From: Candidatus Woesearchaeota archaeon
GTDB lineage: Archaea > Nanobdellota > Nanobdellia > Pacearchaeales > GW2011-AR1
Assembly (NCBI GenBank): GCA_964412025.1
Contig: CAYPLY010000001.1
Span: forward strand, 4,797 to 68,796
Length of the DNA stretch: 64,000 bases
Direction: 5' to 3'
Shown here: piece after piece, positions 3,494 through 59,026 of the stretch
Layout of the letters: each line of letters starts with the position of its first letter
Position numbering within the stretch: the stretch's first letter is position 1
Made by a program: the position numbers and the translations under genes
The notes under the pieces: model-generated
What the model saw: the letters and a program-made list of their open reading frames with translations, nothing else
The model's database searches: none
Told to the model about the DNA's origin: nothing

Positions 3494-3557
3494 GTTTTGA
3501 TAACTACATTTTGTTTTATAAATGTTATTATAACTACAAATTTCTGTTTATTATTTA

Positions 3558-3602
3558 TACATATATAATAAGTATTTTTAACAAATAATAGATATATTTA
3601 TA
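3558..3602 (+). promoter_or_regulatory. AT-rich TATA-like promoter region upstream of the giant surface-protein gene
   Basis: TTTATACATATATAATAAG and TATATTTATAAGG motifs lie 25-70 nt upstream of the ATG at 3628. Confidence 0.3.
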
Positions 3603-3627
3603 AGGTATATTACATAAATAATAAGTA

Positions 3628-6600: not shown

Positions 6601-9600
6601 CTTAATAATTCAGATTCAACATTAAAGATATATGAAGTTTGGTTTGAAGTAAATTACACAACTCCTGCAAGCAACGACTTGTGGAACGGAACAATTGATA
6701 CTTCCAGATTATCTGCAGGAAATTACACTTATACTATTTTTGCAAATGATAGCTCAGATAATCTTGCAAATTATCAAAATAATTTTACAATATTACCTCA
6801 ACTTGTCCTGGTGAATGTTTCAATGAATGATGCGCAAGGGAATTTTCAGGAAGCTGAAGTTATAATTTATAATACTGAGAGTCAGGAAGTGGAGATGAAC
6901 TCAACTATGACTGAATCAGAATTAATATCTGTTGAAGAAGGAGAGAAGAATATTTTGATAAATCCTGTTGGAACTCCTGTATTCCAAATTGAATATGAAA
7001 ATACTTTAATTGAAAACTACACTGAAGGAATAATTGATATCGATCAGCCTTCTGAAGTAGAAAATTTTACCAAGGTATATGCATTAAATCCTCATTTAAA
7101 TACAAATGCTACAGTAACTGCATTTGCAACGGGTAATGAATTATACAAATGTAAAGACTGGAACTTTACAAATCAATCTTGTTATGGGGAATGGATTAAA
7201 GTTATGGATATCACTCCAGGAGAAGAATATAACTTCACACTCTCTCCAGAAGATCCTGCTTTTGCTGAAGTTATTGTAATAATATTTGCACATCATCTTA
7301 ACTCAACTAGAGACTTTATTTCGGATATCTACCAAGAGGTTGTTCTATTAGATGATATTTGGAGCGAGGAAATTCCTGATGGAGATTATGTTAGAGTTAC
7401 TTTTGAGAGTAATTTGACAAGTGATAGAGATATAACAATATATCCAAGGATAGTTTCAGGAACACCAAGGATTGAGATTTATGAAGTGAATGAAAGTACA
7501 TTGATTGCCGAATTTAATCCAATTATTAATAATTCTTATAACAAAAGATTCTTGACAAGTCTGATTGGAGAGCAAGATACATTTGATTTGAGAATTATTG
7601 GAGGAAGTGTTGAGTTTGATTATATTGTTGATCCTCCAGATTACTTAAGTTGCGTTTCAGGAACATGTATAGCAGTATTTAATATTACAACTGGTGCAAA
7701 CACATGGCAGGTTCCTACCGAAGTTACTGAAATAATGATTGAAGCTTGGGGAGGAGGCGGAGCAGGTGGAGGTTCTATATCGAATGGTTATGGTGGAGGA
7801 GGCGGAGCAGGTGGCCAGTATGCTAAACGTAATTTAACTGTAACTCCTTCGACTACTTTTAACATTTTTATTGCTTCATCAATAACGGGGGGTACAGGTG
7901 ATGGTTCACAAGGATATAATACAAGTTTCTTCAATTCTACAGGAAATTATGTTGTTGCAATGGGTGGTGAAGGAGGTAAAGGAGGAATTAATAAAGCTGC
8001 AGGGGCTGGAGGCTTAGGTTCTATTTCTGGAGGTGTGGGTACCACAATTTATGGGGGCGGAAATGGATACACTGGGAGTTCATCAGGAGGAGGAGGAGGA
8101 GGAGGTTCTGGAACAACTGGTTGGGGTGGAAATAGTACAAGTGCTACAGGAGGAACAGGAACTTCAATTGGGGGAGGAGATGGAGGTGCAGGTAACACAG
8201 ACGCAAGTGGAGACGCTGGACTTAATTATGGTGGAGCTGGAGGGGGAGGAGAAAGAGCAGGAGGAACTAATGGAGTGGGAGGAACAGGAGCACAAGGGAT
8301 GTTAAAAATAACATATGCAGAACCTGTTGATTTAACTTCTCCTCAGTATAATTCTGTTTCAGTTAATAATACTCTTGCAGGGCAAATAACTAATTTTGCA
8401 ATAAATGTGACTGATAATATCGCATTGCATCCAAATGGGCAATATATTTTCTCAACTAATAATACTGGAGTTTGGATAAATGATAGCTTTTGGCAAAAAG
8501 ATTTAACTATAAATGCAAGTTTGCCAGATATTGGAACTAATTCAAAACCTTCTGTATTTTATAAAGATTCTTCATGGTACCTAATAAGCGGTATTCAATC
8601 AGGGGAGTTTTTTGGTTTTGCTTATAATGGAACTAATTGGTTGCCAAATTCAACAATAAATGCAAGTTTGCCCGATATTGGATCTAATACAAACCCTTAT
8701 GTATTCTATAAAGATTCTTCATGGTATCTAATAAGCGGAGAAGCTGGGGGAAATTTTTATGGCTTTGCTTGGGATGGTACTCAATGGTTGCCAAATTCAA
8801 CAATAAATGCAAGTTTGCCCGGTATTGGAATTAGTTCAGTACCTTCTGTATTTTATAAAGATTCTTCATGGTATCTAATAAGCGGAGAAAGAGATGGAAA
8901 TTTTTATGGCTTTGCTTGGGATGGTACTCAATGGTTACCTAATTCAACAATAAATACAAGCTTGCCTAATCTTGGAGAAACTTCTTTCATATCTCCTTAT
9001 GTATTCTATAAAGATTCTTCATGGTACCTAATAAGCGGAGAAAATACTGGAAATTTTTATGGCTTTGCTTGGGATGGTACTCAATGGTTACCTAATTCAA
9101 TAATAAATGCAAGCTTGTCTAAAACAATTTCTAAATCATCTCCTTCTGTATTTTATAAAGATTCCTCTTGGTATTTAATCTCTGGAGATACAAATGGAAT
9201 ATTTTTTGGTTACAAATATTCTGATGCTACAAATTTCACCTCAACTCCTTCCTGGGCAAATGTTACAAAAACATTGAATTCAACTAGTGGGATGGTTGTA
9301 GGTTATAGGTGGTATTTCAAAGATTCTTATTCAACACCAAATTATAATTCAACACCTGTTTATACTTTGACAACGACTCCTTATTATGGTATCTTAAATG
9401 TTAGCATAATTCTTCCTGAAAATTATTCTGGATACTTCACTGGAAATACTAATTTAACAATAAATGCAAGTGTTACTTGTGTGGGTGGAGCATATTGCGG
9501 AACAGTAAGTGCGACAGCGAGATATAATCTTTCAAGTGCTTCTCCTGATACAAATATTAATATTAGTGAAGGAGGATCTCCTTTTTATAACCTTGGAAGT

Positions 9601-12600
9601 GGCGGAGAGGATATATATGTCTATAATTTTAGTGGGATAACTAATCCTTCTTCAACACATAAAGCTACTAATGGCTCATGTTCTTCATTTGTCTCATTTC
9701 AACCTAATAATCAATATGAGTTTTATAATGAAGGTTATTCTAATCTAGTTTTTATTGATGGATTTGTTACAAAAACTTCCCTTCCATCTGGATTTGGATC
9801 GAATAAACCTTATGAGAAATTTGATTTTAAAATTTTAGAGTCAAAAGATTCCATAAATGAGATAAATCTCTCAATATATGGAAGATCATATTCTAGTTCA
9901 GATTATCAATTTACTGTTTTTGTATATAATTATAGCGGAGGCATCATGGGTGATCCATGGAAGCAAGTATCTTCAATTAATTTAGAGGGTTTTCAATATC
10001 ATAATCTAACCTTTAACAAAACTACCTCCCCAAACATAGATGAGATAATTGGTTCTGATGGAATAATTCAGATTCTTGTAAAAGGTTATTCTGATATTGT
10101 TAGTACTTCTATTGAAGTTGATTTTATTGAAATCAAAGTCAATGGTTCCAGAGGAGCCTCAAATCCACAAACCTCCTCAGTAATTCTTAATGAGGGAGAA
10201 TCTTTCTATCCAAATTGGACAATAAACGTTACATCAACAACCCCCAATCAAGAATACTTGTTGGATGTTTTATTTAATTCAAGCTATGGAAATTCCAATG
10301 TTCTTGATAATAATACAGAAGACAGAAGAATAATATTGAATCCTGGTGCTGGAAGTTCTGAATGTGGTTCTCTAGATATTGAAAATAAATCATGTACCTT
10401 AACAGGAAATATTTCTTCCTTGGAAAATGGTTTTAATATAACAGCTCAAAATATAACTTTAGATTGTGGAGGAAATTACATAATAGGCAGTAATGTTCCA
10501 AATTCAAAAGGTATATTGATAAATAGCTCAAATGTAACAATTACGAATTGTAAGTTTTCTAATTTTCCAATAGATATTTACACTTTAAATGGAAATAATA
10601 TAACTTTGTATAACATAACTGGTGGTAGCGAATATGGTTTGATTGTAAATGGAACAACTAATAGCAATTTCACTAATATTTCTTTTAATAATGTTACAAT
10701 TGCAGGTATTTTAGTTACTAATAATTCACATAATAATACTTTCACAGATATAAACATAAACAGTAGTGCTCATGGAATATATGTTGAAGGGGGTCAGAGT
10801 AATACATTTGATTGTGCTAATGGTTTGATTAATTATTCCCAGGGAGGAGGAGGGTGGTATTTTGGTATTACAAGTAACCAGTTTAATACTACAATAAAGA
10901 ATTGTAATATTTTTAATTCTAATAGAACAACTACGTATTCATATAGCATGGGTATCCAATTAACTGGAAGTTCTAACTCTTCTTTATATAATAATTATGT
11001 TGATTCCGGAAGTTCTGCTGGGATATATGTTACAAACTCTCATTTTAATCTTTTGGTTAATAATTTTGGATCTTCTGTTAATAATCAGGGGTTAAGACTT
11101 GAATCCTCTTATAATAATCTTTTAATCAACAATACGGGGAGTAGTTCTTCAAATGGAGGTATTGGTATTACTGGAAGCACTTCTCATTCAAATACTTTAA
11201 TTAATTGTACAGCTAGAGGAGGCAATACAGGAGGAATGTATTTTACAACCTCTTCTCATGATAATGAGATAATTAATTTAAATGCTTCAGGTTCAAGGGC
11301 TGTACGTATTACAGGTTCTTCTAATAATACTATAAGAGATTGTTTATCTATTTCTGGAACGTCTGCTGATGTATATATATCAAATGATGCGGGAGGAATT
11401 AATAGTTCGTTTGTTAATTGTTCATATGACCTCAGTAAAGAAATATTTGAAGATGCTGTTAATGAGTTGACAAGGAAATGGTATTATATGGCATATGTTA
11501 ACGATAGTTCTGGAAATCCAGTTGAGAACGCAAACATAACTGCTTATAACTCAACAGGAGATTTACAATTTACGGCATTAACAAATTCAACAGGACATAT
11601 TTCAAGACAGGAAGTTATAGAATATTTTAATGATGCAGGAACAAGAAGTTATTATAACAATTATACAATAAACGCAAATAAATCTGGTTATATTAATGAT
11701 AGTAATGAGTTTAATTTTACAATAACGCAGAATAAGGTTGACGATTGGTTTACTTTAACGGAGGAAGCAGCAGGTCCTGCAGATTGTAATACAATTGGTA
11801 ACTCTGGGATTTTAGATACGGATAATGGGGTTTATACTTTAACAGAGAATATCTCATCACAGGGAACATGTTTGACTGTTGCTGCAGCAAATGTAACAAT
11901 TGATTGTAATGGATATTGGATAACTTTTTCAACTGATGGAGCAACAGGCACCAGAGGTATTTACTCCAATCAATTTAATACAACTATAAAAGATTGTAAT
12001 ATAATTGATGGGAACTGGACAACTCCAGATAGTTGGAGAGCAGGAGTTTTCTTTACTATTGGGGCAGATTATGGATTAATACAGAATGTTTCTACTAATG
12101 TCAGTAATTGTCACGGTATTGATATTAATGGGGGTTCTGGTATAAGAGTATATAATTCTACAGGAAGGACAAAAGATTATCATGGAATAATAATATGGAC
12201 TGATGCTTCTAATATTACTCTATTAAACTCTACAGGAATATCGAATACAAGTGTAGGTATTGGAATATATGGTAACAATAATTCTATTTATAATTCTACA
12301 GGGCAGTCTACATATAATAGTTATGGTATCTATTTACCTTCAGTTTCTAATAATCTAATCTCTGGGTGTAATGCTAGTTCTGATTCAAATCATGGAATAT
12401 TTGCCCAGAACAGTACAAATAATACTTTAATTAATAATAATATAACAAGTAATTCTGGGGGCGGGATTGTTATTTATTCTTATTCAACAAATAATACTCT
12501 CATAAATAATAATGTATCAACAAATTCTGGAAGTGCAATTTACATTCTGGCGCTTTCCAATAACAATACTTTACTTAGAAACAATGCTACAACTAATTCA

Positions 12601-15600
12601 GCGAGTGGTCAGGCAATTTATATTTACAATTCTTCATATATGAATTTAACTGAAAACAAAGCAACAAGTACTTCCTCAAGCGGTATTTACATAGAAGAAT
12701 CTTCAGATAATAACACTTTAACATCAAATAACGGAACTAGTTATGCTGCTGATAATTTTGGAATTGTATTGGGAACTTCCAGCAACAACATCCTTACAAA
12801 CAATACTGGTATGAATGTAAATAATGGAATTGGAATCTATATTGCAGTTTCTTCAAATAACAATACTTTGATTAATAATACGGCAATTTCAAATACAGGA
12901 CAGGGGGTTTATATTTATTCTAATTACAATAACACTCTTATTAATCAAAAAGCATACGGTGGTCTGGGGGTCTTTATAATAAATGCAAATTCTACAACTT
13001 TCAGAGATTGTGTTGAGATATCCGGGACAACTTTTGATGTAAATTTATTTTCAACTCCTTTAAGCAAGAACAACACTTTCATAAACTGTTCTTATGATAC
13101 GGAAACTGTTGGAGGGACAGATAACGAGCTAATAAGAAAATGGTATTATCAAGCATATGTTAATGATACTTCAGGAAGTTCAGTTTCAGATGCAAATGTA
13201 ACTTCATACAATGCAACAGGAGTTCTTCAATCTACAGCTCAAACTAATTCTTCTGGTTGGATTTCAAGACAGGAAGTTACAGAATATGTAAATACAGGAG
13301 GAACAAGAAGTTTCTATAATAATTATTCCATATTTGCGAATAAATCAGGATATATTAATGATAGTAATGAGTTTAATTTTACAATAACGCAGAATAAGGT
13401 TAATGACTGGTTTACTTTGGAGGGAGGAGGTCCAGCAGACTGTACAACAATTGGTAACTCAGGAATATTAGATACTGATAATGCATTTTATACCTTGACA
13501 GAGAATATCTCATCGCAGGGAACATGTCTTGATGTTGTAGCTGATAATGTTACAATTGATTGTAATGGATATTGGATAAATTATTCAATAAATGGACAAA
13601 GCGGGGATCATGGTATCTACACTAATCAGTTTAATACTACTATAAGGAACTGTAATATTGTTGATGGGAATTGGACAACTTCAAATACAGGAAGGTCTGG
13701 AATATATTTTAGTGGAGTTATAAACGGAACTATACAAAACAATTCTATTAATATAAGCAACACTCTAGGTATTCTTTTAAATTATAAGTCTTCAAATAAT
13801 ATCTTAATCAACAATAATGTTTACAGTTTTTCTGGAACTGCAATAAGCATTTACAATTCTACTAATAATTTATTGGAAAATAATACCGGGATAAGTAATT
13901 CAAGCTACGGAATCTCTTTACAATATTATGATGAGGGCAATATCTTAATAAATAATACTGGGATAAGTAATACAAGTAATGGAATTTATGTTTATTACTC
14001 GCATACAAATAATCTAACTAATAATAATGCAACAAGCACTTCTAATCATGGGATGCTTCTTGATCATTCAGACAATAATACCTTAACTAATAATAATGGA
14101 ACCAGTTTAGAAGATAGCAATGGAATTTATATATATCCTTATTCAGAGAATAATACCTTAATAGGTAATATTGGAACTTCTTTAGAAGGAGGAGTTGGAA
14201 TATCTCTTTGGTCTTCAGCAAATAATACTTTAATAAATAATACTGGTTTAAGTAATAGTAGCCGTGGAATCTTGCTTGCGTATTCAAATAATGTTACTCT
14301 AACAAATAATACTGGAAGAAGTAATTTTGCCCGTGGAATAGATATTCAATCCTCAAATGAGAGTGCTTTAATAGATAACGAAGGAATAAGTTTAGCAGGA
14401 AGTTACGGAATTATTGTTTATACGTCAAAGGACAATACTTTAATAGATAATATAGGAACAAGTAATACAAGCAACGGAATCTCTATACAATATTCTTCAA
14501 ATATCAATTTAATAAATAATACGGGTATAAACAACTATCAAAGCCAAGGATTCCTTATATATTACTCTAATAATAATACTCTTATAAATAATACTGGAAG
14601 AAATCTTGATTATGGTAATAGAGGACTTTATATTAGTAATTGTTTAAATAACACTGTAATAAATCAAATAGGAACAGGAACCAGAGGTATTGCAATATCT
14701 GGTTCAAATCATACTTTGATTCGAGATTGTATTAATGTTACTGGAAGAACCAACGATGTTTATATTAGTGATGCAAGTACTAATGTAACTTTCATAAATT
14801 GTTCTTATAATTACACTCCGGAATATGTTGGGGCTGGTAGCGAACTAATCAGAAAATGGTATTATCAAGCTTATGTAAATGACAGTTCTGGGGCTGCAGT
14901 TGAAGACGCGAATGTAACTGCATATAATATAACAGCGCAAATTCAATTCACAGAACAGACTAATGGAAGCGGGTGGATCGGAAGGCAGGAAGTTATTGAG
15001 TATATTAATACAGCTGGAACAAGGAGTTATTACAATAATTACACTATAAATGCAACAAATACCACTTTTACAGAAGATCACATATTCAACTTTACAATAA
15101 CACAGAATAAGGTTGACGACGTGTTTACATTGGACGATTCAGGTACAGCAGATTGTAATACAATTGGAAACTCCGGAAAATTGGATGTCGAGGGGCAAAC
15201 ATATACTTTAACAGAAAATATTTCCTCTCAGGGAACATGTTTAACCGTCTCTGCTGAAAATGTTACAATCGATTGTAATGGGTATTGGATAAATCATTCT
15301 ATAAATGGAACAGATGCAATGTATGGGATATATTCAAACCAATTTAATACAACAATAAAGAATTGTAATATTATTGATGGGAATTGGTCAATAGGTACTC
15401 AAAGCAGAAGAGGGATTTATTTGGTTTCGAGTCATAATTCTACTCTATTTAGAAATTTCATAAACGAAAGTAATTCTCAGGGGGTTTATACTAGCGGTTC
15501 GAATTATATGAATATTACCAACAATACGATTTCTTCTTCTTCTAGCCAGGCAATAAGGTTGTCTTCTTCTCATTATAATATTTTGGTTGGAAATAATATT

Positions 15601-17565
15601 AGGGCTTACTCCTTATATGGTACTGCTTTAACAAGCGGTTCAAGTAATAACACATTTATTAATCACACCTCTAAAAGTAATACTGATTCTATACGCTTTG
15701 AATCAAGCGCCAATGGTAATTTATTCATAAATACAAACTCTTCGGGTAAATATGCATTTCATTTTGAAGATAGTAGTTACAATAACATCACAGATTGTAT
15801 TTATGCGAGCGGGACTCTCGAGGATGTGTATGCCGAGTTTGAGACAATAGGTTCTGCTGGAAATATTTTCTTAAATTGTTCTTATGACACTGAAAATACT
15901 ACAGGCGAGGTAAATCAGATTATAAGAAAATGGTACTATCAAGCTTATGTAAATGATACCTCGGGAAGTGCGGTTGAAAGTGCAAATATCACGGCTTATA
16001 ACACAACCGGAGATTTGCAGTTTACAGCTTTAACAAATTCAACAGGGCATATTTCAAGACAGGAAGTTATTGAATATGTGAATGCTTCTGGGACGGTAAG
16101 TTACTACAATAATTACACAATTTTTGCAAATAAGACAGGTTATGTTGGAGATATAAATGTCTTCAACTTTACAATAACTCAGAATAAGGTTGATGACTGG
16201 TTTACATTAGATGAAAATACTCCTCCACAGATAATCTCGGTTTATAATTCAACTGAAATGACAGATATTTCATCTGGACCTAATGAAGGACCTGTTGTAA
16301 CGTATGTTTTATTGAACTTTACAGCATATGATGAACAGGGATTTGATAATTTGGATGATAGCTCGGTACAGGTAAATTTCTCACTAGCGGGTGAAAGTTC
16401 AAGGGTTAATTCAAGCTGTGCATTGTTGGGAGACTATGATACAAACTATGCAAATTATACTTGTAATGTAACAATGTGGTGGTGGGATGCTCCTGGAACA
16501 TGGTCTATAAATGCTTCTATAGAAGATGTTGATGGAAACTCTGGATTTAATGATTCAACAACTTTTGCAGTTGGTTCAACAACTGGTTTTTTAGCTAATT
16601 CTACAAATGTTAACTGGCCAGATATTCCTCCGGGTGCAACTAATATAGAGGCATTATCTCCTATGTTGTTAAACAATACGGGAAATGAAGAAATAAATGT
16701 TGAAGTTAATGCAACTAATCTTACTGGAGAAAGCTATTCAAATTATGCTTTGGGAGCAAGTAACTTTAGTGTTCATACTTCTCCTGGTTGCGGAGGAACT
16801 CAAATGTTCTGGTATCAGTACACAACTGTTGTTGGAGCTGTAATTCCTAAGGGAAATTATAGTTTAAATGATGGAACTGCTCAGGAAACAATTTATTTCT
16901 GTTTAGAAGAATCAAATGCCAATTTAATCTCGCAGGCATATTCAACAACACAACAGGGTAGTTGGACAATAAGAATATTCCTTGTTGCAGTTACATTTGG
17001 AAGGAGAAGAAAGAAGAAAGGAAAAACAGGGACAATTGAAAAAGATAAACTTCTGAAAGCAATAAATCTTGTTTCAGAAGAGATGAAGGAAGAATATTCT
17101 CCTGAAAAAGAACAGGTAATTAATATCTTGGTTAAGGAAGTCAAGAAAAAATACAGAGTGAACAACAAGGAAATATCTGAATTTATAATCTCAAAGAAGG
17201 AAATAGAAGTATCTATAGATGTATTCAGTAAAAATCTTGGAGCATTAGAAGCTCTTGTCAAATATATGAAAGAAAACTTGAATATGAATTATGTTGAAAT
17301 CGCGAGAAGACTTGGAAGGGATGAAAGGACAATATGGACAGCTTATAAGAAAGCAAGTGATAAACATAAAGAACCTCTTAAGATAAAAGAGAGTGGATTT
17401 ACCATTCCAATTGAGAGATTAGGAAATGAGAAACTAACAGTGTTAGAAGCTATTATAATATATTTAAAAGAAAAAGGAAAGAAATATTCTGAAATTGGTA
17501 AATTGTTAAATAGAGATCAGAGAAATATCTGGACAATATATTCGAAAGCGATTAACAAGAGATAA
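3628..17565 (+). CDS. giant (4645 aa) cell-surface beta-helix repeat protein
   Basis: A single uninterrupted ORF. It opens with a cytoplasmic segment of about 95 aa followed by one TM helix (LALFFGVLFLGGFIFAALSL). It contains at least six copies of an acidic S/T/E-rich repeat (core SYSETETP[SL]KEESSPSQ[EG]ESLTE), a Gly-rich tract, five tandem units of about 62 aa (VFYKDSSWYLISGE..GNFYGFAWDGTQWLPNSTINASLP), and four mega-repeats of about 570 aa made of PbH1-like NNTLINNTG beta-helix turns plus RKWYYQAYVND..ISRQEV modules. N-x-S/T sequons are extremely dense. A C-terminal domain is paralogous to ORF 17616-18539. It ends with a hydrophobic/RRRKKK segment and a tandem HTH tail. Confidence 0.85.
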   Translation: MGRTRLAKALVSSLQRNKEASQSRKNELVDYLKRLNQAHANKQISGAKYVETLTKKTNGRNIKEWVDYYENYSKNCEKAIERQKAKVIRNRVLALFFGVLFLGGFIFAALSLDYSSIGLTGFFVGEGFQEQEYSQIIGLITNESTNYELNLENPGQLSSVKINGEIKGEGEIKVYLNDLLILDSSKIKSKSSSPKYNSPLTGMIIEETETITTDSQTTTSEDSYSETETPSKEDSSPSQEESLTETTNSQTISSEVSYSEEKIESEVPLQEESSPSQEEPQASESLDKTLDDTPQTENESISYSETETPSKEESSPSQEESLTETNQSYPQRNQTEDIETNEREVQTNVTYEQESNETQSNISYSETETPLKEESSPSQGESLTENIFNEFCEDTCNLEKLNLTNSSYTLRVEIEGNVTLRLGSIDYSIILEEVPLISENITVNTVQYDAVLGKPVKWKKQIELPEKGNVKVELPKGSEKIVVSKIIDRESYSEKEASQKEESSPSQGKLLTENRKVKEKSNSIEVLIEDNSDLYEIEYETPAPYSSEEETEKGKKVIIAGSEEVHYENVLAFTNLSESLDIRSPSELKIYWIEEEVYLPAERVEDKDNNGFYDYVEWIVPHLSNQTFLITIQSGTEGKDAHIDSSTPNRNFGASTSMIISNTERMLLEFDLSDVTETANIVNANLTLYLSSAGTGTNPISVYRINNSWIEGTGDSQNTYDGVTWTNRSGTESWDIPGGDFDSRVWAIRNLTTAGTYYTLDITQLVQNWVNGTYENYGIILYGENGHGQWHFPSSDNINATIRPQLNITYNESQVPVINSVSIPSTIREGENLSLTANITDNLEVEGAIIEIDNLNYSLGQNPQTISNVAIIRPAAKGTIETNRVVNYLNSYDNNNDTSSGINAVNPLLTIKTSGVSVAGIINSVKVKVIHSKLSYDTIGYLHWASSNGGEEQGLTHEFNSTSETPEITEFDVTSERDWSFADFNLLTEIHLNNSDSTLKIYEVWFEVNYTTPASNDLWNGTIDTSRLSAGNYTYTIFANDSSDNLANYQNNFTILPQLVLVNVSMNDAQGNFQEAEVIIYNTESQEVEMNSTMTESELISVEEGEKNILINPVGTPVFQIEYENTLIENYTEGIIDIDQPSEVENFTKVYALNPHLNTNATVTAFATGNELYKCKDWNFTNQSCYGEWIKVMDITPGEEYNFTLSPEDPAFAEVIVIIFAHHLNSTRDFISDIYQEVVLLDDIWSEEIPDGDYVRVTFESNLTSDRDITIYPRIVSGTPRIEIYEVNESTLIAEFNPIINNSYNKRFLTSLIGEQDTFDLRIIGGSVEFDYIVDPPDYLSCVSGTCIAVFNITTGANTWQVPTEVTEIMIEAWGGGGAGGGSISNGYGGGGGAGGQYAKRNLTVTPSTTFNIFIASSITGGTGDGSQGYNTSFFNSTGNYVVAMGGEGGKGGINKAAGAGGLGSISGGVGTTIYGGGNGYTGSSSGGGGGGGSGTTGWGGNSTSATGGTGTSIGGGDGGAGNTDASGDAGLNYGGAGGGGERAGGTNGVGGTGAQGMLKITYAEPVDLTSPQYNSVSVNNTLAGQITNFAINVTDNIALHPNGQYIFSTNNTGVWINDSFWQKDLTINASLPDIGTNSKPSVFYKDSSWYLISGIQSGEFFGFAYNGTNWLPNSTINASLPDIGSNTNPYVFYKDSSWYLISGEAGGNFYGFAWDGTQWLPNSTINASLPGIGISSVPSVFYKDSSWYLISGERDGNFYGFAWDGTQWLPNSTINTSLPNLGETSFISPYVFYKDSSWYLISGENTGNFYGFAWDGTQWLPNSIINASLSKTISKSSPSVFYKDSSWYLISGDTNGIFFGYKYSDATNFTSTPSWANVTKTLNSTSGMVVGYRWYFKDSYSTPNYNSTPVYTLTTTPYYGILNVSIILPENYSGYFTGNTNLTINASVTCVGGAYCGTVSATARYNLSSASPDTNINISEGGSPFYNLGSGGEDIYVYNFSGITNPSSTHKATNGSCSSFVSFQPNNQYEFYNEGYSNLVFIDGFVTKTSLPSGFGSNKPYEKFDFKILESKDSINEINLSIYGRSYSSSDYQFTVFVYNYSGGIMGDPWKQVSSINLEGFQYHNLTFNKTTSPNIDEIIGSDGIIQILVKGYSDIVSTSIEVDFIEIKVNGSRGASNPQTSSVILNEGESFYPNWTINVTSTTPNQEYLLDVLFNSSYGNSNVLDNNTEDRRIILNPGAGSSECGSLDIENKSCTLTGNISSLENGFNITAQNITLDCGGNYIIGSNVPNSKGILINSSNVTITNCKFSNFPIDIYTLNGNNITLYNITGGSEYGLIVNGTTNSNFTNISFNNVTIAGILVTNNSHNNTFTDININSSAHGIYVEGGQSNTFDCANGLINYSQGGGGWYFGITSNQFNTTIKNCNIFNSNRTTTYSYSMGIQLTGSSNSSLYNNYVDSGSSAGIYVTNSHFNLLVNNFGSSVNNQGLRLESSYNNLLINNTGSSSSNGGIGITGSTSHSNTLINCTARGGNTGGMYFTTSSHDNEIINLNASGSRAVRITGSSNNTIRDCLSISGTSADVYISNDAGGINSSFVNCSYDLSKEIFEDAVNELTRKWYYMAYVNDSSGNPVENANITAYNSTGDLQFTALTNSTGHISRQEVIEYFNDAGTRSYYNNYTINANKSGYINDSNEFNFTITQNKVDDWFTLTEEAAGPADCNTIGNSGILDTDNGVYTLTENISSQGTCLTVAAANVTIDCNGYWITFSTDGATGTRGIYSNQFNTTIKDCNIIDGNWTTPDSWRAGVFFTIGADYGLIQNVSTNVSNCHGIDINGGSGIRVYNSTGRTKDYHGIIIWTDASNITLLNSTGISNTSVGIGIYGNNNSIYNSTGQSTYNSYGIYLPSVSNNLISGCNASSDSNHGIFAQNSTNNTLINNNITSNSGGGIVIYSYSTNNTLINNNVSTNSGSAIYILALSNNNTLLRNNATTNSASGQAIYIYNSSYMNLTENKATSTSSSGIYIEESSDNNTLTSNNGTSYAADNFGIVLGTSSNNILTNNTGMNVNNGIGIYIAVSSNNNTLINNTAISNTGQGVYIYSNYNNTLINQKAYGGLGVFIINANSTTFRDCVEISGTTFDVNLFSTPLSKNNTFINCSYDTETVGGTDNELIRKWYYQAYVNDTSGSSVSDANVTSYNATGVLQSTAQTNSSGWISRQEVTEYVNTGGTRSFYNNYSIFANKSGYINDSNEFNFTITQNKVNDWFTLEGGGPADCTTIGNSGILDTDNAFYTLTENISSQGTCLDVVADNVTIDCNGYWINYSINGQSGDHGIYTNQFNTTIRNCNIVDGNWTTSNTGRSGIYFSGVINGTIQNNSINISNTLGILLNYKSSNNILINNNVYSFSGTAISIYNSTNNLLENNTGISNSSYGISLQYYDEGNILINNTGISNTSNGIYVYYSHTNNLTNNNATSTSNHGMLLDHSDNNTLTNNNGTSLEDSNGIYIYPYSENNTLIGNIGTSLEGGVGISLWSSANNTLINNTGLSNSSRGILLAYSNNVTLTNNTGRSNFARGIDIQSSNESALIDNEGISLAGSYGIIVYTSKDNTLIDNIGTSNTSNGISIQYSSNINLINNTGINNYQSQGFLIYYSNNNTLINNTGRNLDYGNRGLYISNCLNNTVINQIGTGTRGIAISGSNHTLIRDCINVTGRTNDVYISDASTNVTFINCSYNYTPEYVGAGSELIRKWYYQAYVNDSSGAAVEDANVTAYNITAQIQFTEQTNGSGWIGRQEVIEYINTAGTRSYYNNYTINATNTTFTEDHIFNFTITQNKVDDVFTLDDSGTADCNTIGNSGKLDVEGQTYTLTENISSQGTCLTVSAENVTIDCNGYWINHSINGTDAMYGIYSNQFNTTIKNCNIIDGNWSIGTQSRRGIYLVSSHNSTLFRNFINESNSQGVYTSGSNYMNITNNTISSSSSQAIRLSSSHYNILVGNNIRAYSLYGTALTSGSSNNTFINHTSKSNTDSIRFESSANGNLFINTNSSGKYAFHFEDSSYNNITDCIYASGTLEDVYAEFETIGSAGNIFLNCSYDTENTTGEVNQIIRKWYYQAYVNDTSGSAVESANITAYNTTGDLQFTALTNSTGHISRQEVIEYVNASGTVSYYNNYTIFANKTGYVGDINVFNFTITQNKVDDWFTLDENTPPQIISVYNSTEMTDISSGPNEGPVVTYVLLNFTAYDEQGFDNLDDSSVQVNFSLAGESSRVNSSCALLGDYDTNYANYTCNVTMWWWDAPGTWSINASIEDVDGNSGFNDSTTFAVGSTTGFLANSTNVNWPDIPPGATNIEALSPMLLNNTGNEEINVEVNATNLTGESYSNYALGASNFSVHTSPGCGGTQMFWYQYTTVVGAVIPKGNYSLNDGTAQETIYFCLEESNANLISQAYSTTQQGSWTIRIFLVAVTFGRRRKKKGKTGTIEKDKLLKAINLVSEEMKEEYSPEKEQVINILVKEVKKKYRVNNKEISEFIISKKEIEVSIDVFSKNLGALEALVKYMKENLNMNYVEIARRLGRDERTIWTAYKKASDKHKEPLKIKESGFTIPIERLGNEKLTVLEAIIIYLKEKGKKYSEIGKLLNRDQRNIWTIYSKAINKR

Positions 17566-17615: not shown

Positions 17616-18539
17616 ATGAAAAGAGGAATTTATGTTTTTGTTCTGTTTTTTGCAATTTTATTAACTTTGTCCATGGTTTCTGCTGGAGGCTTTGATGAAT
17701 TTTGGGATAAGATTACTGGAAGAGCTACTACTCAGGATGTTAGTTTAAGCGTAACAGTAACTGGTGGAAGTGTACCTGTTGTAGTCGCAGTGTATAACGA
17801 GACCGCAACAAGTATGCAAAGTGGTCCAAATGAGGGTCCTGCTCCAACTCATGTTATTGCCGTTTTTAGAGTAAATGATCCTGATGGAATAGGAAATTTA
17901 GATAATTCATCTGCAGTTATGAATTTTTCTTTGGCAGGTGAAACTACAAGGCAGGCAACGTGCACTTTTGTTGCTGGGCAAAGTACTTCAACCCAAGCAA
18001 ATTATACTTGCAACGTTACAATGTGGTGGTATGATGCACCCGGACAATGGACTATTAATACCTATATAGAAGATTTAAGTGGAAATTCTGGATATAATAG
18101 CACTTCAAAAAATGTTTATGTTGGAACAACTGATGGACTTTTGGCAAATCAGACTTCTTTGACTTGGCCTTCTATAAATCCGGGGGCAGCAAATACAGAA
18201 GCGAATGAATTTATGGGATTAAACAATACTGGAAATAGACCTAGATCATTATATGTTAATCCTTCAGATCTTCTTGGAGATGTTAATGAGAATTATGCTT
18301 TGGGTGCAAATAATTTTAGCGTTAAGAATGCAACAGGATGTGAAGGTACTCTTATGGTGAATAGAACCGATACAAATATAACCTCTGTTGCTGTATTTAA
18401 TAGAGGTAATTATACTTTGAATGATGGAACTGCACAGGCAAATCTATATTATTGTCTTGAGACTTCAAACTCAAACTTAATTGCACAGTCATATTCAACC
18501 GGTGCTCTTGGAGCATGGATAATAAAGACAGGAAATTAA
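17616..18539 (+). CDS. secreted protein paralogous to the C-terminal domain of the giant protein
   Basis: Signal peptide MKRGIYVFVLFFAILLTLSMVSAGG. The block SGPNEGPAPTHV...NFSLAGETTR...ANYTCNVTMWWYDAPGQWTIN...LNDGTAQANLYYCLE aligns with giant-protein residues near its C-terminus (SGPNEGPVVTYV...NVTMWWWDAPGTWSIN...LNDGTAQETIYFCLE). Confidence 0.7.
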   Translation: MKRGIYVFVLFFAILLTLSMVSAGGFDEFWDKITGRATTQDVSLSVTVTGGSVPVVVAVYNETATSMQSGPNEGPAPTHVIAVFRVNDPDGIGNLDNSSAVMNFSLAGETTRQATCTFVAGQSTSTQANYTCNVTMWWYDAPGQWTINTYIEDLSGNSGYNSTSKNVYVGTTDGLLANQTSLTWPSINPGAANTEANEFMGLNNTGNRPRSLYVNPSDLLGDVNENYALGANNFSVKNATGCEGTLMVNRTDTNITSVAVFNRGNYTLNDGTAQANLYYCLETSNSNLIAQSYSTGALGAWIIKTGN

Positions 18540-18540
18540 A

Positions 18541-19071: not shown

Positions 19072-19108
19072 ATAGAATAACTTTTTAATACTGCTTTGCT
19101 TTATCTAA

Positions 19109-23096: not shown

Positions 23097-24032
23097 ATGG
23101 CCGGAATAAGAAAATGTCCTGAATGTGGGAGTATCAATTTAACTTACGATTCTCATCTTGGAGAGGTAATTTGTAATGATTGTGGTCTTGTTGTAGAAGA
23201 AAAGATGGTTGATACAGGGATGGACCTGTCTGGAAAGTTTGATAAAAGTGAAAAAAAGGGAAGAGGTGGAGCTCCAATTTCCATACAAAAATTTGATAAG
23301 GGTTTAACTACAAATGTTGGGGAGATTTCTGATATTTATAGGCTTGAGCCAAAGCAAACAAGAAAGTTTTTGAGATTGAAAAAATGGCAGGAGAGGGTTT
23401 CAACTTCAATTGAAAGAAATTTAAGACTTGCAATGGCAGAGTTAAGGGTTATTGCCTCTTATCTTAATTTGCCCAATGTTGTAAGAGATGAAGCTTCAAG
23501 GATATACAATTATGTTCTTCAAAGAGGGTTGGTAAGAGGACGAAGTATGGAATCTGTCATTGCTGCCTGTCTTTATGCTGCCTGTCGTTCTTATAATATT
23601 CCAAGAACGCTTGATGAGATGGCAACAGCTTCCGATGTTGAAAGAAAAGAAATAGGAAGGACTTATAGATTTATTATAAGGAAATTAGGAATAAAAGTAA
23701 ATCAATCTTCTCCAAAAGATTATGTATCAAGATTTTCTTCAGTGTTAAAATTAAGTCCAAAGACACAGAATGATGCTTTAAAGGTATTAAAACAAGCAGA
23801 AGATGTTGAGCTTACTTCCGGAAGAGGTCCCGCAGGAATTGCTGCAGCAGCACTCTACGTCGCTGCTTTGATGAATGATGAAAAGAAAACTCAGAGAGAG
23901 GTTGCAGATATTGCGGGGATAACTGAAGTTACAATAAGAAACAGATATAAAGAATTAATAGAAAAACTTAAACTTGAAGAAAAGATAAAACAGAAAGAAT
24001 CTGAATCTAAGAAAAAGAAACAACAGGATTAA
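23097..24032 (+). CDS. tfb: transcription initiation factor TFB (TFIIB homologue)
   Basis: N-terminal zinc ribbon CPECGS...CNDCG followed by two cyclin-fold repeats (RGRSMESVIAACLYAACR...). 311 aa. Confidence 0.9.
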   Translation: MAGIRKCPECGSINLTYDSHLGEVICNDCGLVVEEKMVDTGMDLSGKFDKSEKKGRGGAPISIQKFDKGLTTNVGEISDIYRLEPKQTRKFLRLKKWQERVSTSIERNLRLAMAELRVIASYLNLPNVVRDEASRIYNYVLQRGLVRGRSMESVIAACLYAACRSYNIPRTLDEMATASDVERKEIGRTYRFIIRKLGIKVNQSSPKDYVSRFSSVLKLSPKTQNDALKVLKQAEDVELTSGRGPAGIAAAALYVAALMNDEKKTQREVADIAGITEVTIRNRYKELIEKLKLEEKIKQKESESKKKKQQD

Positions 24033-54191: not shown

Positions 54192-54314
54192 TTTTAGTTT
54201 GTTCTTGATATACTCTTTTTGATATATATAAGAGATAATATAGGTTTAAAAACTTTTATCTTTCTTTATTTTTTAAACAGAAAACTATTTAATGGGATTG
54301 TTTTTATTATTTCA

Positions 54315-55085
54315 ATGCTGAAAAATTTTTTAAATGAGGTGATATCCATTGTTGTTGGGAAACCTGCAGATTCAATTGTTAATCTTCTCGAGGGAGATAA
54401 ATATGTTAATGAATTTATAATTGCTAAGAAACTAGATTTGACTATAAATCAGGCTAGAAATATTTTATACAAAATATCCGATAATGGTCTCGTTTCCTCT
54501 ATAAGAAAAAAGGATAAAAAGAAAGGATGGTATACTTATTTTTGGAAGATTGAAGTTTTGAAATCTTTGGAATTCTTAAGAGAACTTGTATTAAAGAATC
54601 TCACACAGATGAAAAACCAGATAAAAAGCAGAGAAACAAAGAGATTTTATGTTTGTGAGAGATGTAATATAGAATTTAATGAGGAGAATGCGATGCTTCA
54701 TGATTTTACTTGTAATGAGTGTGGAGAGGTTTTTTCAGTTAAGGATAATGAAAAGGTTCTTAAGGAATTTAAGAAAAATGAGGAAAAGCTCGAGAATAAA
54801 TTGAAGATGATTGATGAACAGATAGAGATAGAGAAAGCTAAATTAGAAAAGATAAAGATGAAAGAGATTAAGAAAATTCAAAATGAAAAGATAAAACAGA
54901 GAGAAGAGACTAGGAGATTACAGAAGGAAGCAAGAGAGAGAGAAAAAGGTAAAAAGGTACCGGTTAAGAATAAAAAAGATATTAAGAAAGTTGTTAAAAA
55001 ATCTGGTTTGAAAAAAAATTTAGATAAGAAATCCAAGAAAGTATCTGTAAAAGATAAAAGTAAGAAAGCTTCCAAGAAGAAATAA
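54315..55085 (+). CDS. tfe: transcription factor E alpha subunit (TFIIE-alpha homologue) with a K-rich C-terminal extension
   Basis: Winged helix NEFIIAKKLDLTINQARNILYKISDNGLVSSIRKKDKKKGWYTYFWKI plus zinc ribbon CERCNIEF...CNECGEVF. The start is moved to the internal Met (MLKNFLNEV) because the upstream 32 codons look like AT-rich non-coding sequence. Confidence 0.7.
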   Translation: MLKNFLNEVISIVVGKPADSIVNLLEGDKYVNEFIIAKKLDLTINQARNILYKISDNGLVSSIRKKDKKKGWYTYFWKIEVLKSLEFLRELVLKNLTQMKNQIKSRETKRFYVCERCNIEFNEENAMLHDFTCNECGEVFSVKDNEKVLKEFKKNEEKLENKLKMIDEQIEIEKAKLEKIKMKEIKKIQNEKIKQREETRRLQKEAREREKGKKVPVKNKKDIKKVVKKSGLKKNLDKKSKKVSVKDKSKKASKKK

Positions 55086-59025: not shown

Positions 59026-59026
59026 A

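What the first reader, a model, noticed from the sequence alone, without database searches (positions are those of the whole stretch)
16969..17565. Tandem helix-turn-helix tail fused in frame to the C-terminus of the 4645-aa surface protein
After the last extracellular domain the ORF continues through a short hydrophobic stretch and a basic cluster (IRIFLVAVTFGRRRKKKGK). This looks like a stop-transfer anchor. A further roughly 180 aa then follow, containing two copies of an HTH_10/sigma-70-region-4-like motif: VEIARRLGRDERTIWTAYKKA and SEIGKLLNRDQRNIWTIYSKA. Each is preceded by LEA..Y.KE. If genuine, this is a membrane-spanning giant adhesin carrying a cytoplasmic DNA-binding module. That would be a one-component surface sensor, perhaps released by intramembrane proteolysis. 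The alternative is that a separate small regulator gene (possible start MKEEYSPEKEQ at about 17086) has been fused by loss of a stop codon or an assembly error. Both outcomes matter for annotation.
Basis: partly seen in the sequence, partly recalled or inferred. Interest (0 to 1): 0.7.

Follow-up and report, generated by a model that had tools for sequence, protein, structure and literature searches.

The report
Giant archaeal surface protein with self-regulating DNA-binding tail
A 4645-residue surface protein of a tiny DPANN archaeon really does end in a pair of DNA-binding domains, this layout recurs in dozens of related genomes, and a 17-base motif found almost only in front of such genes suggests the tail controls its own gene.

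Summary

The fusion is not an assembly artefact. About 50 DPANN genomes carry the same in-frame layout, together with a conserved roughly 90-aa N-terminal cytoplasmic module and a strong TM1.

Relatives show two other layouts. In one, a free HTH-pair gene overlaps the start of a gene for an N-in membrane protein. In the other, a surface protein ends in a canonical 22-aa TM anchor and overlaps a free HTH gene.

New here: a 17-bp motif, TACATAnATAATAAGTA, occurs twice in the window, flanking the TATA box of the giant gene. The proximal copy ends at -1 of the ATG. Across 1.16 Mb of related loci, 92 of 101 copies lie in promoters of genes of this family (3.7 copies expected in total).

Best reading: a membrane-tethered, autoregulatory DNA-binding tail.

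Main open point: the hydrophobic stretch is only 8-10 uncharged residues, and AF2 predicts no helix there. Sensing and proteolytic release remain speculative.

The parts
3558..3574 (+). Distal copy of the 17-bp motif TACATATATAATAAGTA (candidate operator), about -70 to -54 from the ATG, upstream of the TATA box.
   Evidence: exact match. It is one of only two matches (<=2 mismatches) in the 64-kb window. The same position (-67 to -70) is used in most complete fused homologues.
3597..3604 (+). TATA-like box TTTATAAG. Its centre lies about 27 nt before the ATG, which implies a leaderless or nearly leaderless mRNA.
   Evidence: sequence. The same TTTATAAG lies between the two motif copies in most homologous promoters. 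The inferred transcription start rests on the usual archaeal TATA-to-start distance (established knowledge).
3611..3627 (+). Proximal copy of the 17-bp motif TACATAAATAATAAGTA. It ends at -1 of the start codon, between the TATA box and the predicted transcription start.
   Evidence: In 25 promoters the motif starts at -16 or -17.
3628..17565 (+). The 4645-aa ORF (stop codon included).
3628..3900 (+). N-module: conserved basic helical N-terminal domain of about 91 aa (MGRTRLAKA...EWVDYYENYSKNCE...), 24% K+R, with no Pfam family.
   Evidence: The exhaustive profile search gave 209 hits, always at residues 1-125.
3901..3966 (+). TM1, a strong signal-anchor helix (VLALFFGVLFLGGFIFAALSL), preceded by RQKAKVIRNR, so N-in.
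   Evidence: Kyte-Doolittle 2.64 over 19 aa, the best in the protein. Conserved in the complete homologues.
3967..16962 (+). Ectodomain of about 4330 aa. It contains an S/T/E-rich stalk, Disaggr_repeat, Gly_rich_2, a FYKDSSWYLISG repeat run, four blocks of right-handed beta-helix/NosD repeats, CarboxypepD_reg-like domains and two membrane-proximal Ig-like domains. There are 235 N-x-S/T sequons.
16963..17001 (+). Short hydrophobic segment WTIRIFLVAVTFG. WTIRI(FL) is modelled as the last beta-strand of the Ig-like domain, and 9 uncharged residues follow the R.
   Evidence: Family-wide, the W-to-polybasic distance is 12-14 aa in 35 of 43 proteins. The secreted paralogue at 17616..18539 ends right after the equivalent AWIIK.
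17002..17025 (+). Polybasic cluster RRRKKKGK, a candidate stop-transfer and positive-inside signal.
   Evidence: present in all fused homologues.
17047..17196 (+). Three-helix linker domain (KDKLLKAINLVSEEMKEEYSPEKEQVINILVKEVKKKYRVNNKEISEFII). It is present in most fused and some free homologues and absent in a few.
   Evidence: helices 158-172, 176-193 and 197-207 of the model, pLDDT about 90-95.
17206..17364 (+). HTH repeat 1 (IDVFSKNLGALEALVKYMKENLNMNYVEIARRLGRDERTIWTAYKKASD).
17401..17559 (+). HTH repeat 2 (IPIERLGNEKLTVLEAIIIYLKEKGKKYSEIGKLLNRDQRNIWTIYSKAINK).
17616..18539 (+). Neighbouring gene for a 307-aa secreted paralogue of the giant protein's two membrane-proximal Ig-like domains. 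It has a signal peptide and stops right after ...GAWIIKTGN.
   Evidence: The gene order giant tail, then genes of about 300, 180 and 550 aa, is repeated in L081.

Best explanation
The gene encodes a giant glycosylated surface protein of a DPANN archaeon (Pacearchaeota/Woesearchaeota-like) whose two ends both stay in the cytoplasm.

A conserved basic N-terminal module and a strong signal-anchor helix start export. About 4330 aa are translocated. Translocation then stops at a very short hydrophobic stretch followed by RRRKKKGK. The last 179 aa fold inside the cell into a three-helix linker domain plus a compact pair of sigma-region-4/LuxR-like helix-turn-helix domains.

This tethered HTH pair binds the 17-bp motif TACATAnATAATAAGTA. 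The motif has half-sites TACATA and TAAGTA, 11 bp apart, and is present twice around the TATA box of the protein's own leaderless promoter. Each finished protein molecule therefore feeds back on transcription of its own very costly gene. The feedback is most likely repression, because the proximal copy covers -17 to -1.

Shown: the domains, the conserved fusion, the conserved promoter motif and its specificity. Inferred: the membrane crossing, the DNA binding, and the sign of regulation.
For: **HTH identity.**
- Pfam Sigma70_r4_2 scores 31 bits against a cut-off of 25.7.
- AF2 of the pair gives pLDDT 92.2 and pTM 0.83.

**Conserved fusion.**
- 73 tail homologues were found. Many are N-truncated fragments with the same ectodomain, hydrophobic stretch, polybasic cluster and HTH layout.
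- 287 relatives occur in GTDB genomes. In about 55 of the 80 fetched loci the tail is in frame with open frames of up to 3485 aa.
- An N-module profile search made without reference to the HTH finds 37 proteins ending in the HTH pair, among them a 4280-aa near-orthologue.

**Cytoplasmic location of the tail.**
- Composition switches sharply. The ectodomain has 4.1% K+R and 5.4 sequons per 100 aa. The tail has 24.1% K+R and no sequons. The N-module has 24.2% K+R.
- Free homologues lack a signal peptide.
- In 11-13 of 16 free-gene loci the HTH gene overlaps the start of a gene for an N-in single-pass membrane protein. That protein has the same first ectodomain module as the giant protein.
- A variant syntenic with the window ends the surface protein in a canonical 22-aa TM plus RRIRK, and starts a free HTH gene by an ATGA overlap.

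**Operator.**
- The window has only two matches, both exact and both in this promoter (0.26 expected).
- There are 101 matches in 1.16 Mb against 3.7 simulated.
- 92 of the 101 lie in promoter windows of genes of this family, which make up 1.3% of the search space. The preferred positions are -16/-17 and -67 to -70. At free HTH genes they are -30 and -83.
- A divergent clade with altered recognition helices has a shortened motif, TACATATTAAGTA.

**Precedent.** Transcription regulators acting from the membrane are documented in bacteria and archaea (PMC10269533, PMC6396743).
Against: - The hydrophobic segment is far shorter than normal. Family-wide it has 8-10 uncharged residues and 12-14 residues from W to the basic cluster. 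C-terminal anchors of neighbouring genes in the same window have 19-22.
- The segment is absent from the eight best 19-residue Kyte-Doolittle windows, the lowest of which scores 1.03.
- AF2 models WTIRIFL as the last strand of the Ig-like domain and the rest as coil with pLDDT below 50.
- No DNA-binding test exists. The motif could be bound by another factor.
- 7 of 34 complete fused genes lack the motif at <=2 mismatches. Some of these have variant motifs and two have none recognised.
- A regulator tethered at the end of a 4645-aa protein must reach its promoter from the membrane. That is plausible in a very small cell but is not shown.
Confidence: 0.6

Rival explanations
1. Signal-dependent release. 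The giant ectodomain senses contact or tension. An intramembrane or juxtamembrane protease then cuts at the short hydrophobic/polybasic segment, and the freed HTH pair regulates genes, in the manner of Notch, SREBP or RsiW. Tethering keeps the tail inactive until cleavage.
For: - The hydrophobic stretch is short and often ends in Pro or Gly (IPA, TFG, IPR), features that would favour cleavage or extraction.
- The window encodes a rhomboid protease at 55094..55954.
- Free HTH proteins exist in relatives, so the module can work untethered.
- This reading is compatible with the operator evidence.
Against: - No cleavage site, protease linkage or gene neighbourhood supports it.
- The rhomboid gene is 38 kb away and is a common housekeeping gene.
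- No ligand-binding or sensor domain was recognised in the ectodomain.
- The promoter motif is confined to the gene itself in the window, so no wider regulon is visible.
Confidence: 0.2
2. Sigma/anti-sigma-like partner switch within one polypeptide. The conserved N-terminal cytoplasmic module binds and masks the HTH pair. The state of the ectodomain or membrane controls this contact. The two-gene form in Woesearchaeota is the ancestral regulator/anti-regulator pair.
For: - Within the fetched loci the N-module goes with the HTH module. It is found in ORFs that also end in the HTH pair, or in the gene directly downstream of a free HTH gene.
- In the unbiased search, every N-module protein with a recognisable C-terminal end carries the HTH pair.
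- The gene order (HTH gene overlapping a gene for an N-in single-pass membrane protein) mirrors ECF sigma/anti-sigma operons. That comparison rests on established knowledge.
- Castelle et al. noted sigma-70-classified genes in DPANN with no anti-sigma factor found (PMC8204110).
Against: - No structural or sequence similarity of the N-module to anti-sigma domains was found. It has no Pfam family, and its structure was not predicted.
- Many N-module proteins without an HTH cannot be judged, because they may be truncated.
- Co-occurrence could simply reflect one gene family.
Confidence: 0.15
3. The tail is not inside the cell. The protein is anchored only by TM1, and its C-terminal end is the distal tip. 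There the short hydrophobic stretch plus polybasic cluster acts on a host membrane or binds extracellular polyanions or DNA. The HTH pair might even be delivered into the host.
For: - The hydrophobic stretch is too short for a standard helix, and AF2 gives no helix.
- TM1 alone would suffice as an anchor.
- Polybasic peptides can be membrane-active (general knowledge).
Against: - The tail has cytoplasmic-type composition and no glycosylation sequons, unlike the 4330 aa before it.
- Free homologues have no signal peptide.
- The syntenic split variant places a canonical TM anchor with a basic inside-flank exactly at this junction.
- The operator motif in the organism's own promoter argues for a target inside the cell.
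- A 346-aa mini-variant has only about 85 ectodomain residues between TM1 and the second hydrophobic stretch.
Confidence: 0.08
4. Artefact: a separate small regulator gene was joined to the surface-protein gene by an assembly or sequencing error in this window.
For: - Free HTH genes exist in relatives.
- A few loci show the gene split: L014, L032 and L012.
- The exact 4645-aa product is not on record elsewhere.
Against: - The in-frame fusion is seen in about 50 independent genomes and many metagenome fragments at 35-76% identity.
- The closest relatives, L001 and L002 (75-76% identity), and the 4280-aa P0077 share it.
- There is no second promoter motif and no conserved start codon before the tail.
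Confidence: 0.02

Closest known systems
Transmembrane transcription regulators (ToxR, CadC, TcpP; survey in PMC10269533) and the archaeal membrane-bound regulators ArnR/ArnR1 of Sulfolobus (PMC6396743)
   Same: A DNA-binding domain and membrane segment(s) sit in one polypeptide. Regulation is exerted from the membrane. ArnR shows that this occurs in archaea and controls surface structures.
   Different: - Those proteins are small, with the DNA-binding domain usually N-terminal and a modest sensor domain.
- Here the DNA-binding pair is at the C-terminus, behind an ectodomain of about 4330 aa, with a second and unusually short membrane segment.
- The apparent target is the protein's own promoter.
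- The 2023 survey text does not mention DPANN or Nanoarchaeota.
ECF sigma factor / membrane anti-sigma factor pairs (e.g. SigW-RsiW, SigE-RseA)
   Same: - In Woesearchaeota relatives the HTH gene overlaps a gene for an N-in single-pass membrane protein, as in sigma/anti-sigma operons.
   Different: - There is no sigma region 2, and both repeats are region-4-like.
- The organism is an archaeon with TFB and TFE, so the module cannot act as a bacterial sigma subunit.
- No anti-sigma-domain similarity was found for the N-module.
'Sigma-70' genes reported in DPANN archaea, especially Woesearchaeota (Castelle et al. 2021, PMC8204110)
   Same: These are probably the same or an overlapping family. The free homologues here come largely from Woesearchaeota and hit Sigma70_r4_2. 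That paper stated that no anti-sigma factor was found and that the control mechanism was unclear.
   Different: - Identity with their family fam00359 could not be verified.
- That paper does not describe the fusion to giant surface proteins, the adjacent membrane-protein gene or the promoter motif.
LuxR/NarL/GerE-type and Tfx-like HTH regulators (e.g. NarL 1je8, RcsB, GerE 1fse; archaeal regulator 8hno)
   Different: - Those proteins carry one HTH per chain and dimerise.
- Here two repeats in one chain pack as a fixed pair (pTM 0.83). No PDB or BFVD entry matches both repeats together.
- Pfam GerE was not hit.
Eukaryotic giant or large surface receptors with transcriptionally active intracellular domains (Notch, teneurins)
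   Same: The logic is similar: a very large adhesive ectodomain is coupled to a cytoplasmic domain with a role at DNA.
   Different: There is no homology, and cleavage and release are unproven here. The tail is itself a classical prokaryotic HTH with a candidate operator in its own promoter. The comparison is an analogy from general knowledge only.

Membership tests
Sigma-70 family sigma factors | Region 4 HTH (-35 recognition fold) | tested here: met
   [not shown]
Sigma-70 family sigma factors | Region 2 (core-binding and -10 recognition domain) | tested here: not met
   No Sigma70_r2 hit in the tail or in the whole protein. Both repeats are region-4-like, and the linker domain is a small three-helix unit.
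Sigma-70 family sigma factors | Acts with a bacterial-type RNA polymerase core | tested here: not met
   The window is archaeal. It encodes TFB (23097..24032), TFE-alpha (54219..55085) and archaeal ribosomal proteins. Archaeal polymerase uses TBP and TFB (established knowledge).
LuxR/GerE-type HTH regulators (Pfam GerE PF00196) | Match to the GerE profile | tested here: not met
   GerE is not among the Pfam hits of the tail at E<=1. Only one distant homologue, P0052, carries a precomputed PF00196 hit.
LuxR/GerE-type HTH regulators (Pfam GerE PF00196) | Tetra-helical HTH fold | tested here: met
   [not shown]
   Not among 14 Pfam families listed at E<=1.
Transmembrane transcription regulators (one-component, membrane-bound) | DNA-binding domain and at least one transmembrane segment in one polypeptide | tested here: met
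   TM1 at aa 92-113 (Kyte-Doolittle 2.64), plus the HTH pair. This is the criterion used in PMC10269533.
Transmembrane transcription regulators (one-component, membrane-bound) | DNA-binding domain on the cytoplasmic side | tested here: inconclusive
   For: composition switch, signal-less free homologues, and a split variant with a canonical TM at the junction. Against: 8-10 aa hydrophobic stretch and no helix in AF2.
Transmembrane transcription regulators (one-component, membrane-bound) | Binds specific promoter DNA and changes transcription | not testable with these tools
   There is only comparative evidence. The 17-bp motif is specific to promoters of genes of this family.
Membrane anti-sigma factor / ECF sigma pairs | Regulator gene adjacent to a gene for an N-in single-pass membrane protein | tested here: met
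   In 11-13 of 16 free-HTH loci the next gene overlaps by 6-60 nt. It encodes a cytoplasmic N-domain, a TM and an ectodomain.
Membrane anti-sigma factor / ECF sigma pairs | N-terminal anti-sigma domain that binds the regulator | not tested
   The N-module has no Pfam family. Only 3 usable homologues were available for modelling, so no structure was predicted and no complex prediction was possible.
Substrates of regulated intramembrane proteolysis | Cleavage in or next to the membrane segment, releasing the cytoplasmic domain | not testable with these tools
   There are only hints. Pro or Gly often precedes the basic cluster, and a rhomboid gene lies elsewhere in the window.
C-terminal sorting signals (PGF-CTERM / LPXTG-like tripartite signals) | Motif, hydrophobic helix and basic residues at the extreme C-terminus | tested here: not met
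   187 aa (polybasic cluster included) follow the hydrophobic stretch, and 130-390 aa in homologues. The hydrophobic part is shorter than in such signals.

The most novel reading that the evidence does not exclude
A family of DPANN giant adhesins carries its own repressor. Each exported molecule leaves a tethered tandem-HTH in the cytoplasm, and that module binds operators flanking the TATA box of the same gene. This would give product-counting feedback from the membrane, possibly modulated by the conserved N-terminal module or by cleavage. It would also explain the 'sigma-70-like' genes of DPANN that lack anti-sigma factors. It would be the first case of a cell-surface giant protein acting as its own transcription factor in archaea.
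Probability: 0.45. Interest if true: 0.8.

Novelty: new variant of a known kind. Interest (0 to 1): 0.72.

Why it matters
- **Annotation.** The gene is one gene, and the tail should not be split off. The tail should be called a tandem sigma-r4/LuxR-like HTH, not a sigma factor.
- **Biology.** DPANN archaea depend on cell contact, and their giant surface proteins are their most conspicuous and most costly products, yet nothing is known about how these are controlled.
- **A testable circuit.** A conserved chassis combines an N-module, a variable ectodomain and an HTH tail. A conserved 17-bp promoter motif goes with it. Together they give a concrete circuit of one protein and one operator.
- **An open remark addressed.** The circuit bears on a published observation that sigma-70-like genes occur in DPANN without a known controlling partner (PMC8204110).
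- **Membrane biology.** The extremely short, length-conserved hydrophobic segment raises a question of its own.

Tried and rejected
- Assembly or stop-loss artefact: rejected on comparative grounds.
- Internal start at MKEEY (about 17086): the Met is not conserved, and there is no second copy of the promoter motif inside the ORF.
- HTH_10 assignment: no hit.
- True sigma factor: no region 2, and the basal transcription machinery is archaeal.
- C-terminal sorting signal: the segment is not at the C-terminus.
- PDB profile search of the tail: only weak single-repeat hits.
- Foldseek with the 329-aa model: no significant match.
- BFVD viral fold search: nothing significant. The afdb50 library was unavailable.
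- N-module homologue searches in the word-indexed database returned only 3 proteins, both with a single sequence and with a 31-sequence alignment. No N-module structure was therefore predicted.
- Pfam on the N-module: no family.
- Supplement search for fam00359 in PMC8204110: nothing found.
- Exact-product look-up of the 4645-aa protein: not on record.
- The 'ACTACA/CACTAC' repeats upstream (3500-3545) were considered as a second operator. They flank the TATA box of the divergent GlyRS gene, which is conserved in synteny, so they were set aside.
- Literature searches found no description of this architecture. The library is limited, so absence is not proof.

Full report
**1. Observation**

The window holds one uninterrupted ORF, 3628..17565 on the + strand, of 4645 aa. 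After the last extracellular domain it reads ...QQGSWTIRIFLVAVTFGRRRKKKGKTG... (aa 4446-4466). It then continues for 179 aa that contain VEIARRLGRDERTIWTAYKKA and SEIGKLLNRDQRNIWTIYSKA.

Scanned alone, the tail passes Pfam's curated cut-off for Sigma70_r4_2 (31.0 against 25.7 bits, two stretches) and for HTH_23. HTH_10 is not hit.

The body of the protein is a typical archaeal surface protein. It has twelve Beta_helix/NosD stretches, Disaggr_repeat, Gly_rich_2 and CarboxypepD_reg. It carries 235 N-x-S/T sequons.

The window is a chromosomal piece of a low-GC (about 32%) DPANN-type archaeon. It encodes GAPDH, GlyRS, TFB, TFE-alpha, ribosomal proteins S3Ae, L1 and L10, SRP54, FtsY, several tRNA synthetases and 5 tRNAs.

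**2. What the tail is**

AlphaFold2 was run on the last 329 aa with 53 aligned homologues (mean pLDDT 86). The model shows four parts.
- An Ig-like beta domain whose last strand is WTIRIFL.
- An unstructured VAVTFGRRRKKKGKTG (pLDDT below 50).
- A three-helix domain.
- Two repeats of strand, mini-helix and three helices at pLDDT 94-98.

The HTH pair modelled alone gives pLDDT 92.2 and pTM 0.83, so the two repeats pack in a fixed arrangement.

No chain aligns with more than 64 residues, so none matches both repeats together. A profile search of PDB sequences and a fold search of viral models add nothing stronger.

The tail therefore has no sigma region 2, and the organism has the archaeal basal machinery. 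It is a tandem sigma-r4/LuxR-like HTH DNA-binding module, not a sigma factor.

**3. The fusion is real and conserved**

A search with the tail found 73 proteins from Pacearchaeota, Nanoarchaeota and Woesearchaeota metagenomes. Many are fragments cut at their N-terminus by contig ends. They show the same order:
- ...NDGTAQEELYFC...YSTxxxGSWTI[RK]ILLVAL...RRRKKKK;
- then an optional linker domain;
- then two HTH repeats.

In GTDB species genomes 287 loci encode a relative. Among the 80 loci fetched, about 55 have the tail in frame with large open frames. Complete ones are 1207-3456 aa, and others run off the locus. In every case a hydrophobic stretch plus polybasic cluster lies about 140-390 aa before the stop, usually 180-200 aa.

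The closest relatives, L001 and L002 (75-76% identity), are in frame as well.

An exhaustive HMMER search used the N-terminal 125 aa, so it was made without reference to the tail. It found 209 proteins with the module always at residues 1-125. Of the best 150, 37 end in the HTH pair, including a 4280-aa close relative. The rest are mostly short N-terminal fragments or end inside the ectodomain, so their completeness cannot be judged.

The Met of the proposed internal start (MKEEY) is not conserved. An assembly or stop-loss artefact is therefore rejected. A few loci (L012, L014, L032) do show the gene split, probably by frameshifts.

**4. Family anatomy**

Both ends are conserved and the middle is not.
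- The N-terminus is a basic, helical module of about 90 aa (MGRTRLAKA...IS..xY.ET..KK.DGKT..EWI.YYD.YIK.CE). A strong TM helix follows it in nearly all complete members. It has no Pfam family.
- The ectodomain varies from about 85 aa (a 346-aa mini-variant, P0125) to over 4300 aa.
- Many of these genes sit divergently next to the same GlyRS gene. They are therefore positional orthologues of very different length.

**5. Topology: the weak point**

*For a cytoplasmic tail:*
- TM1 is N-in, preceded by RQKAKVIRNR.
- Composition switches abruptly at the junction. The ectodomain has 4.1% K+R and 5.4 sequons per 100 aa. The tail has 24.1% K+R and no sequon, the same as the N-module at 24.2%.
- Free homologues have no signal peptide.
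- Related cassette proteins have a canonical second TM followed by a basic cytoplasmic tail (L063 11692..12618).
- Most tellingly, one lineage is syntenic with the window (RNase Z, S8e, TFB and a giant gene on the other strand). It ends its surface protein with a canonical 22-aa TM (FIITFFIILIMALVAMVIFFLV) plus RRIRK. It starts a free HTH gene by an ATGA overlap. This is seen in three independent assemblies.

*Against:*
- The hydrophobic segment of the fused family is strikingly short and length-conserved. The uncharged run is 8-10 aa in 34 of 46 proteins. The W-to-polybasic distance is 12-14 aa in 35 of 43.
- It is absent from the eight best 19-residue Kyte-Doolittle windows, the lowest of which scores 1.03.
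- AF2 gives no helix there.
- The secreted 307-aa paralogue next door stops right after the equivalent AWIIK strand. The first five residues therefore probably belong to the Ig-like fold.
- True C-terminal anchors of the two following genes have 19-22 hydrophobic residues.

From published work on short poly-Leu segments and on positively charged flanks (my own knowledge), I consider a short, strongly hydrophobic segment followed by 6-9 Lys/Arg a workable stop-transfer. This is inference. I put the membrane crossing at roughly 75-80%.

**6. Three genomic configurations**

(a) Fused, as in the window.

(b) Woesearchaeota-type. A free 170-240-aa HTH-pair gene overlaps by 6-60 nt the start of a gene for an N-in single-pass membrane protein. 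This holds in 11-13 of 16 loci. The ectodomain of that protein begins with the same module as the giant protein (P.ITG[YH]AV...NESGNY...KVYIE; giant aa about 115-185). In L054 it also has a recognisable N-module.

(c) Split at a canonical anchor.

The HTH module is thus persistently linked to this kind of surface protein, whether fused or not. Configuration (b) has the gene order of ECF sigma/anti-sigma operons.

**7. A conserved promoter motif**

I aligned the 130 nt upstream of the start codons of 31 complete fused genes. This exposed a 17-bp motif, TACATAnATAATAAGTA, present twice as direct repeats around a TTTATAAG box.

In the window the copies are at 3558-3574 and 3611-3627. The second ends at -1 of the ATG, and the TATA-like box is at 3597-3604. 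These are the only two matches (<=2 mismatches, both strands) in 64 kb, where 0.26 are expected.

In the window plus 80 loci (1.16 Mb) there are 101 matches, against 2-7 (mean 3.7) in Markov simulations. Of these, 92 lie within -60 to +300 of the starts of genes that carry the HTH and/or N-module. That is 1.3% of the search space.

The preferred positions are -16/-17 and -67 to -70 for fused genes. For free HTH genes they are -30 and -83, measured to the first ATG. The spacing is the same 52-53 bp in both classes.

The motif reads as two half-sites, TACATA and TAAGTA, 11 bp apart. That would fit two HTHs of one chain on one face of the helix (inference).

A divergent clade (L070, L071, and partly L079) has altered recognition helices (..NY[KR]NA; KD.RN.WT) and carries a shortened variant, TACATATTAAGTA. 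Two members (L072, L073) show no recognisable motif.

The TATA centre is about 27 nt before the ATG, so the mRNA is probably leaderless. The proximal copy then lies between the TATA box and the transcription start. Archaeal repressors commonly bind at that position (established knowledge).

**8. Mechanism proposed**

The giant protein is exported from its N-terminal signal anchor. Export stops at the hydrophobic/polybasic segment, and the tail folds in the cytoplasm. The tethered HTH pair occupies the operators of its own promoter.

In a cell about 300 nm across, one molecule corresponds to roughly 0.1 µM (my arithmetic). A handful of finished proteins could therefore shut off a gene that costs 4645 codons per copy.

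- Shown: the domains, the conserved architecture, the motif and its specificity.
- Inferred: the membrane crossing, the binding and the sign of regulation.
- Possible additions, with no direct evidence: control by the N-module (a sigma/anti-sigma-like masking), and release by proteolysis. A rhomboid protease gene is present at 55094..55954, but nothing links it to this protein.

**9. Comparison with what is known**

Membrane-bound one-component regulators are known in bacteria and archaea (PMC10269533; ArnR/ArnR1, PMC6396743). The text of that survey does not mention DPANN or Nanoarchaeota.

Castelle et al. 2021 reported sigma-70-classified genes in DPANN, especially Woesearchaeota. They remarked that no anti-sigma factors were found and that the control mechanism was unclear (PMC8204110). 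The free homologues seen here are probably that family, although identity could not be verified.

I found no paper describing the fusion to giant surface proteins, the adjacent membrane-protein gene or the promoter motif. The searched library is incomplete.

I therefore file this as a new variant of a known kind, the transmembrane transcription regulators, and not as a member of the sigma or LuxR families.

**10. Verdict**

The fusion and a cytoplasmic DNA-binding module are supported. The artefact alternative is rejected. Sensing and release are untested.
- The main unresolved item is how, or whether, an 8-10-residue hydrophobic stretch spans the membrane.
- The most useful new lead is the operator-like motif, which makes the model directly testable.

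Noticed in passing
window 17616-20815: Three surface-protein genes follow the giant gene. The first is a 307-aa secreted paralogue of its two membrane-proximal Ig-like domains, ending at AWIIKTGN. The second is a 176-aa protein and the third a 568-aa protein, both with canonical C-terminal TM anchors. The same gene order follows a homologous giant-gene tail in L081.
   Followed up: partly
window 3494-3545: ATAACTACA is repeated on both sides of a TTTTATAAAT box, just upstream of the divergent GlyRS gene (ATG at 3493 on the - strand). Similar CACTAC pairs occur in many related loci where GlyRS is also the divergent neighbour. This is probably the GlyRS promoter with its own conserved element.
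   Followed up: partly
window 55094-55954: A rhomboid-family intramembrane protease gene (Pfam Rhomboid, 106 bits) is followed by a SpoIIM-like membrane protein gene (55970-56611). No link to the giant protein was found.
   Followed up: no
window 24259-31686 (- strand): A second very large secreted protein (2475 aa, with a signal peptide) has no Pfam match at E<=1e-5. Its C-terminal part contains a GLMQI-type stretch that reminded me of lytic transglycosylases, but this is unverified. A 2137-aa counterpart sits at the same syntenic position in L082.
   Followed up: no
window 57934-60067: A DisA-type diadenylate cyclase (DAC plus DisA-linker) is followed by a DHH/DHHA1 phosphoesterase. This looks like a c-di-AMP synthesis and degradation pair in a DPANN archaeon.
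   Followed up: no
P0125 (346 aa): A mini-member of the family. It has the N-module, TM1 and a single ectodomain module of about 85 aa. SWTITAIMSLALIRISSKRKKK and the HTH pair follow. It is either a natural minimal chassis or a deletion or assembly collapse.
   Followed up: no
L016, L036, L042, L065, L068; P0001-P0003, P0052: Some relatives carry the HTH module duplicated (3-5 repeats after the polybasic cluster, or four repeats in a free protein). The promoters of some of them (L042, L046, L065) hold 3-4 copies of the 17-bp motif.
   Followed up: partly
L063 11692-12618; L057 7398-8315: Cassette-associated membrane proteins in Woesearchaeota have a canonical second TM. Their cytoplasmic C-tail ends in a G[FL]ISxESYxKDKxRIE motif that resembles the ISxxxYxE stretch of the N-module (SHOCT-like by eye; not confirmed by Pfam).
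   Followed up: no
window 1772-3493 (- strand) and loci L006, L007, L008, L016, L020, L028, L030, L035, L044: GlyRS with a conserved N-terminal extension (MAYIVKQKINGKDYFYLRKS...) is the conserved divergent neighbour of the giant gene across many genomes. The giant gene's length varies from about 1450 to 4645 aa, so the ectodomain turns over quickly at a fixed locus.
   Followed up: partly
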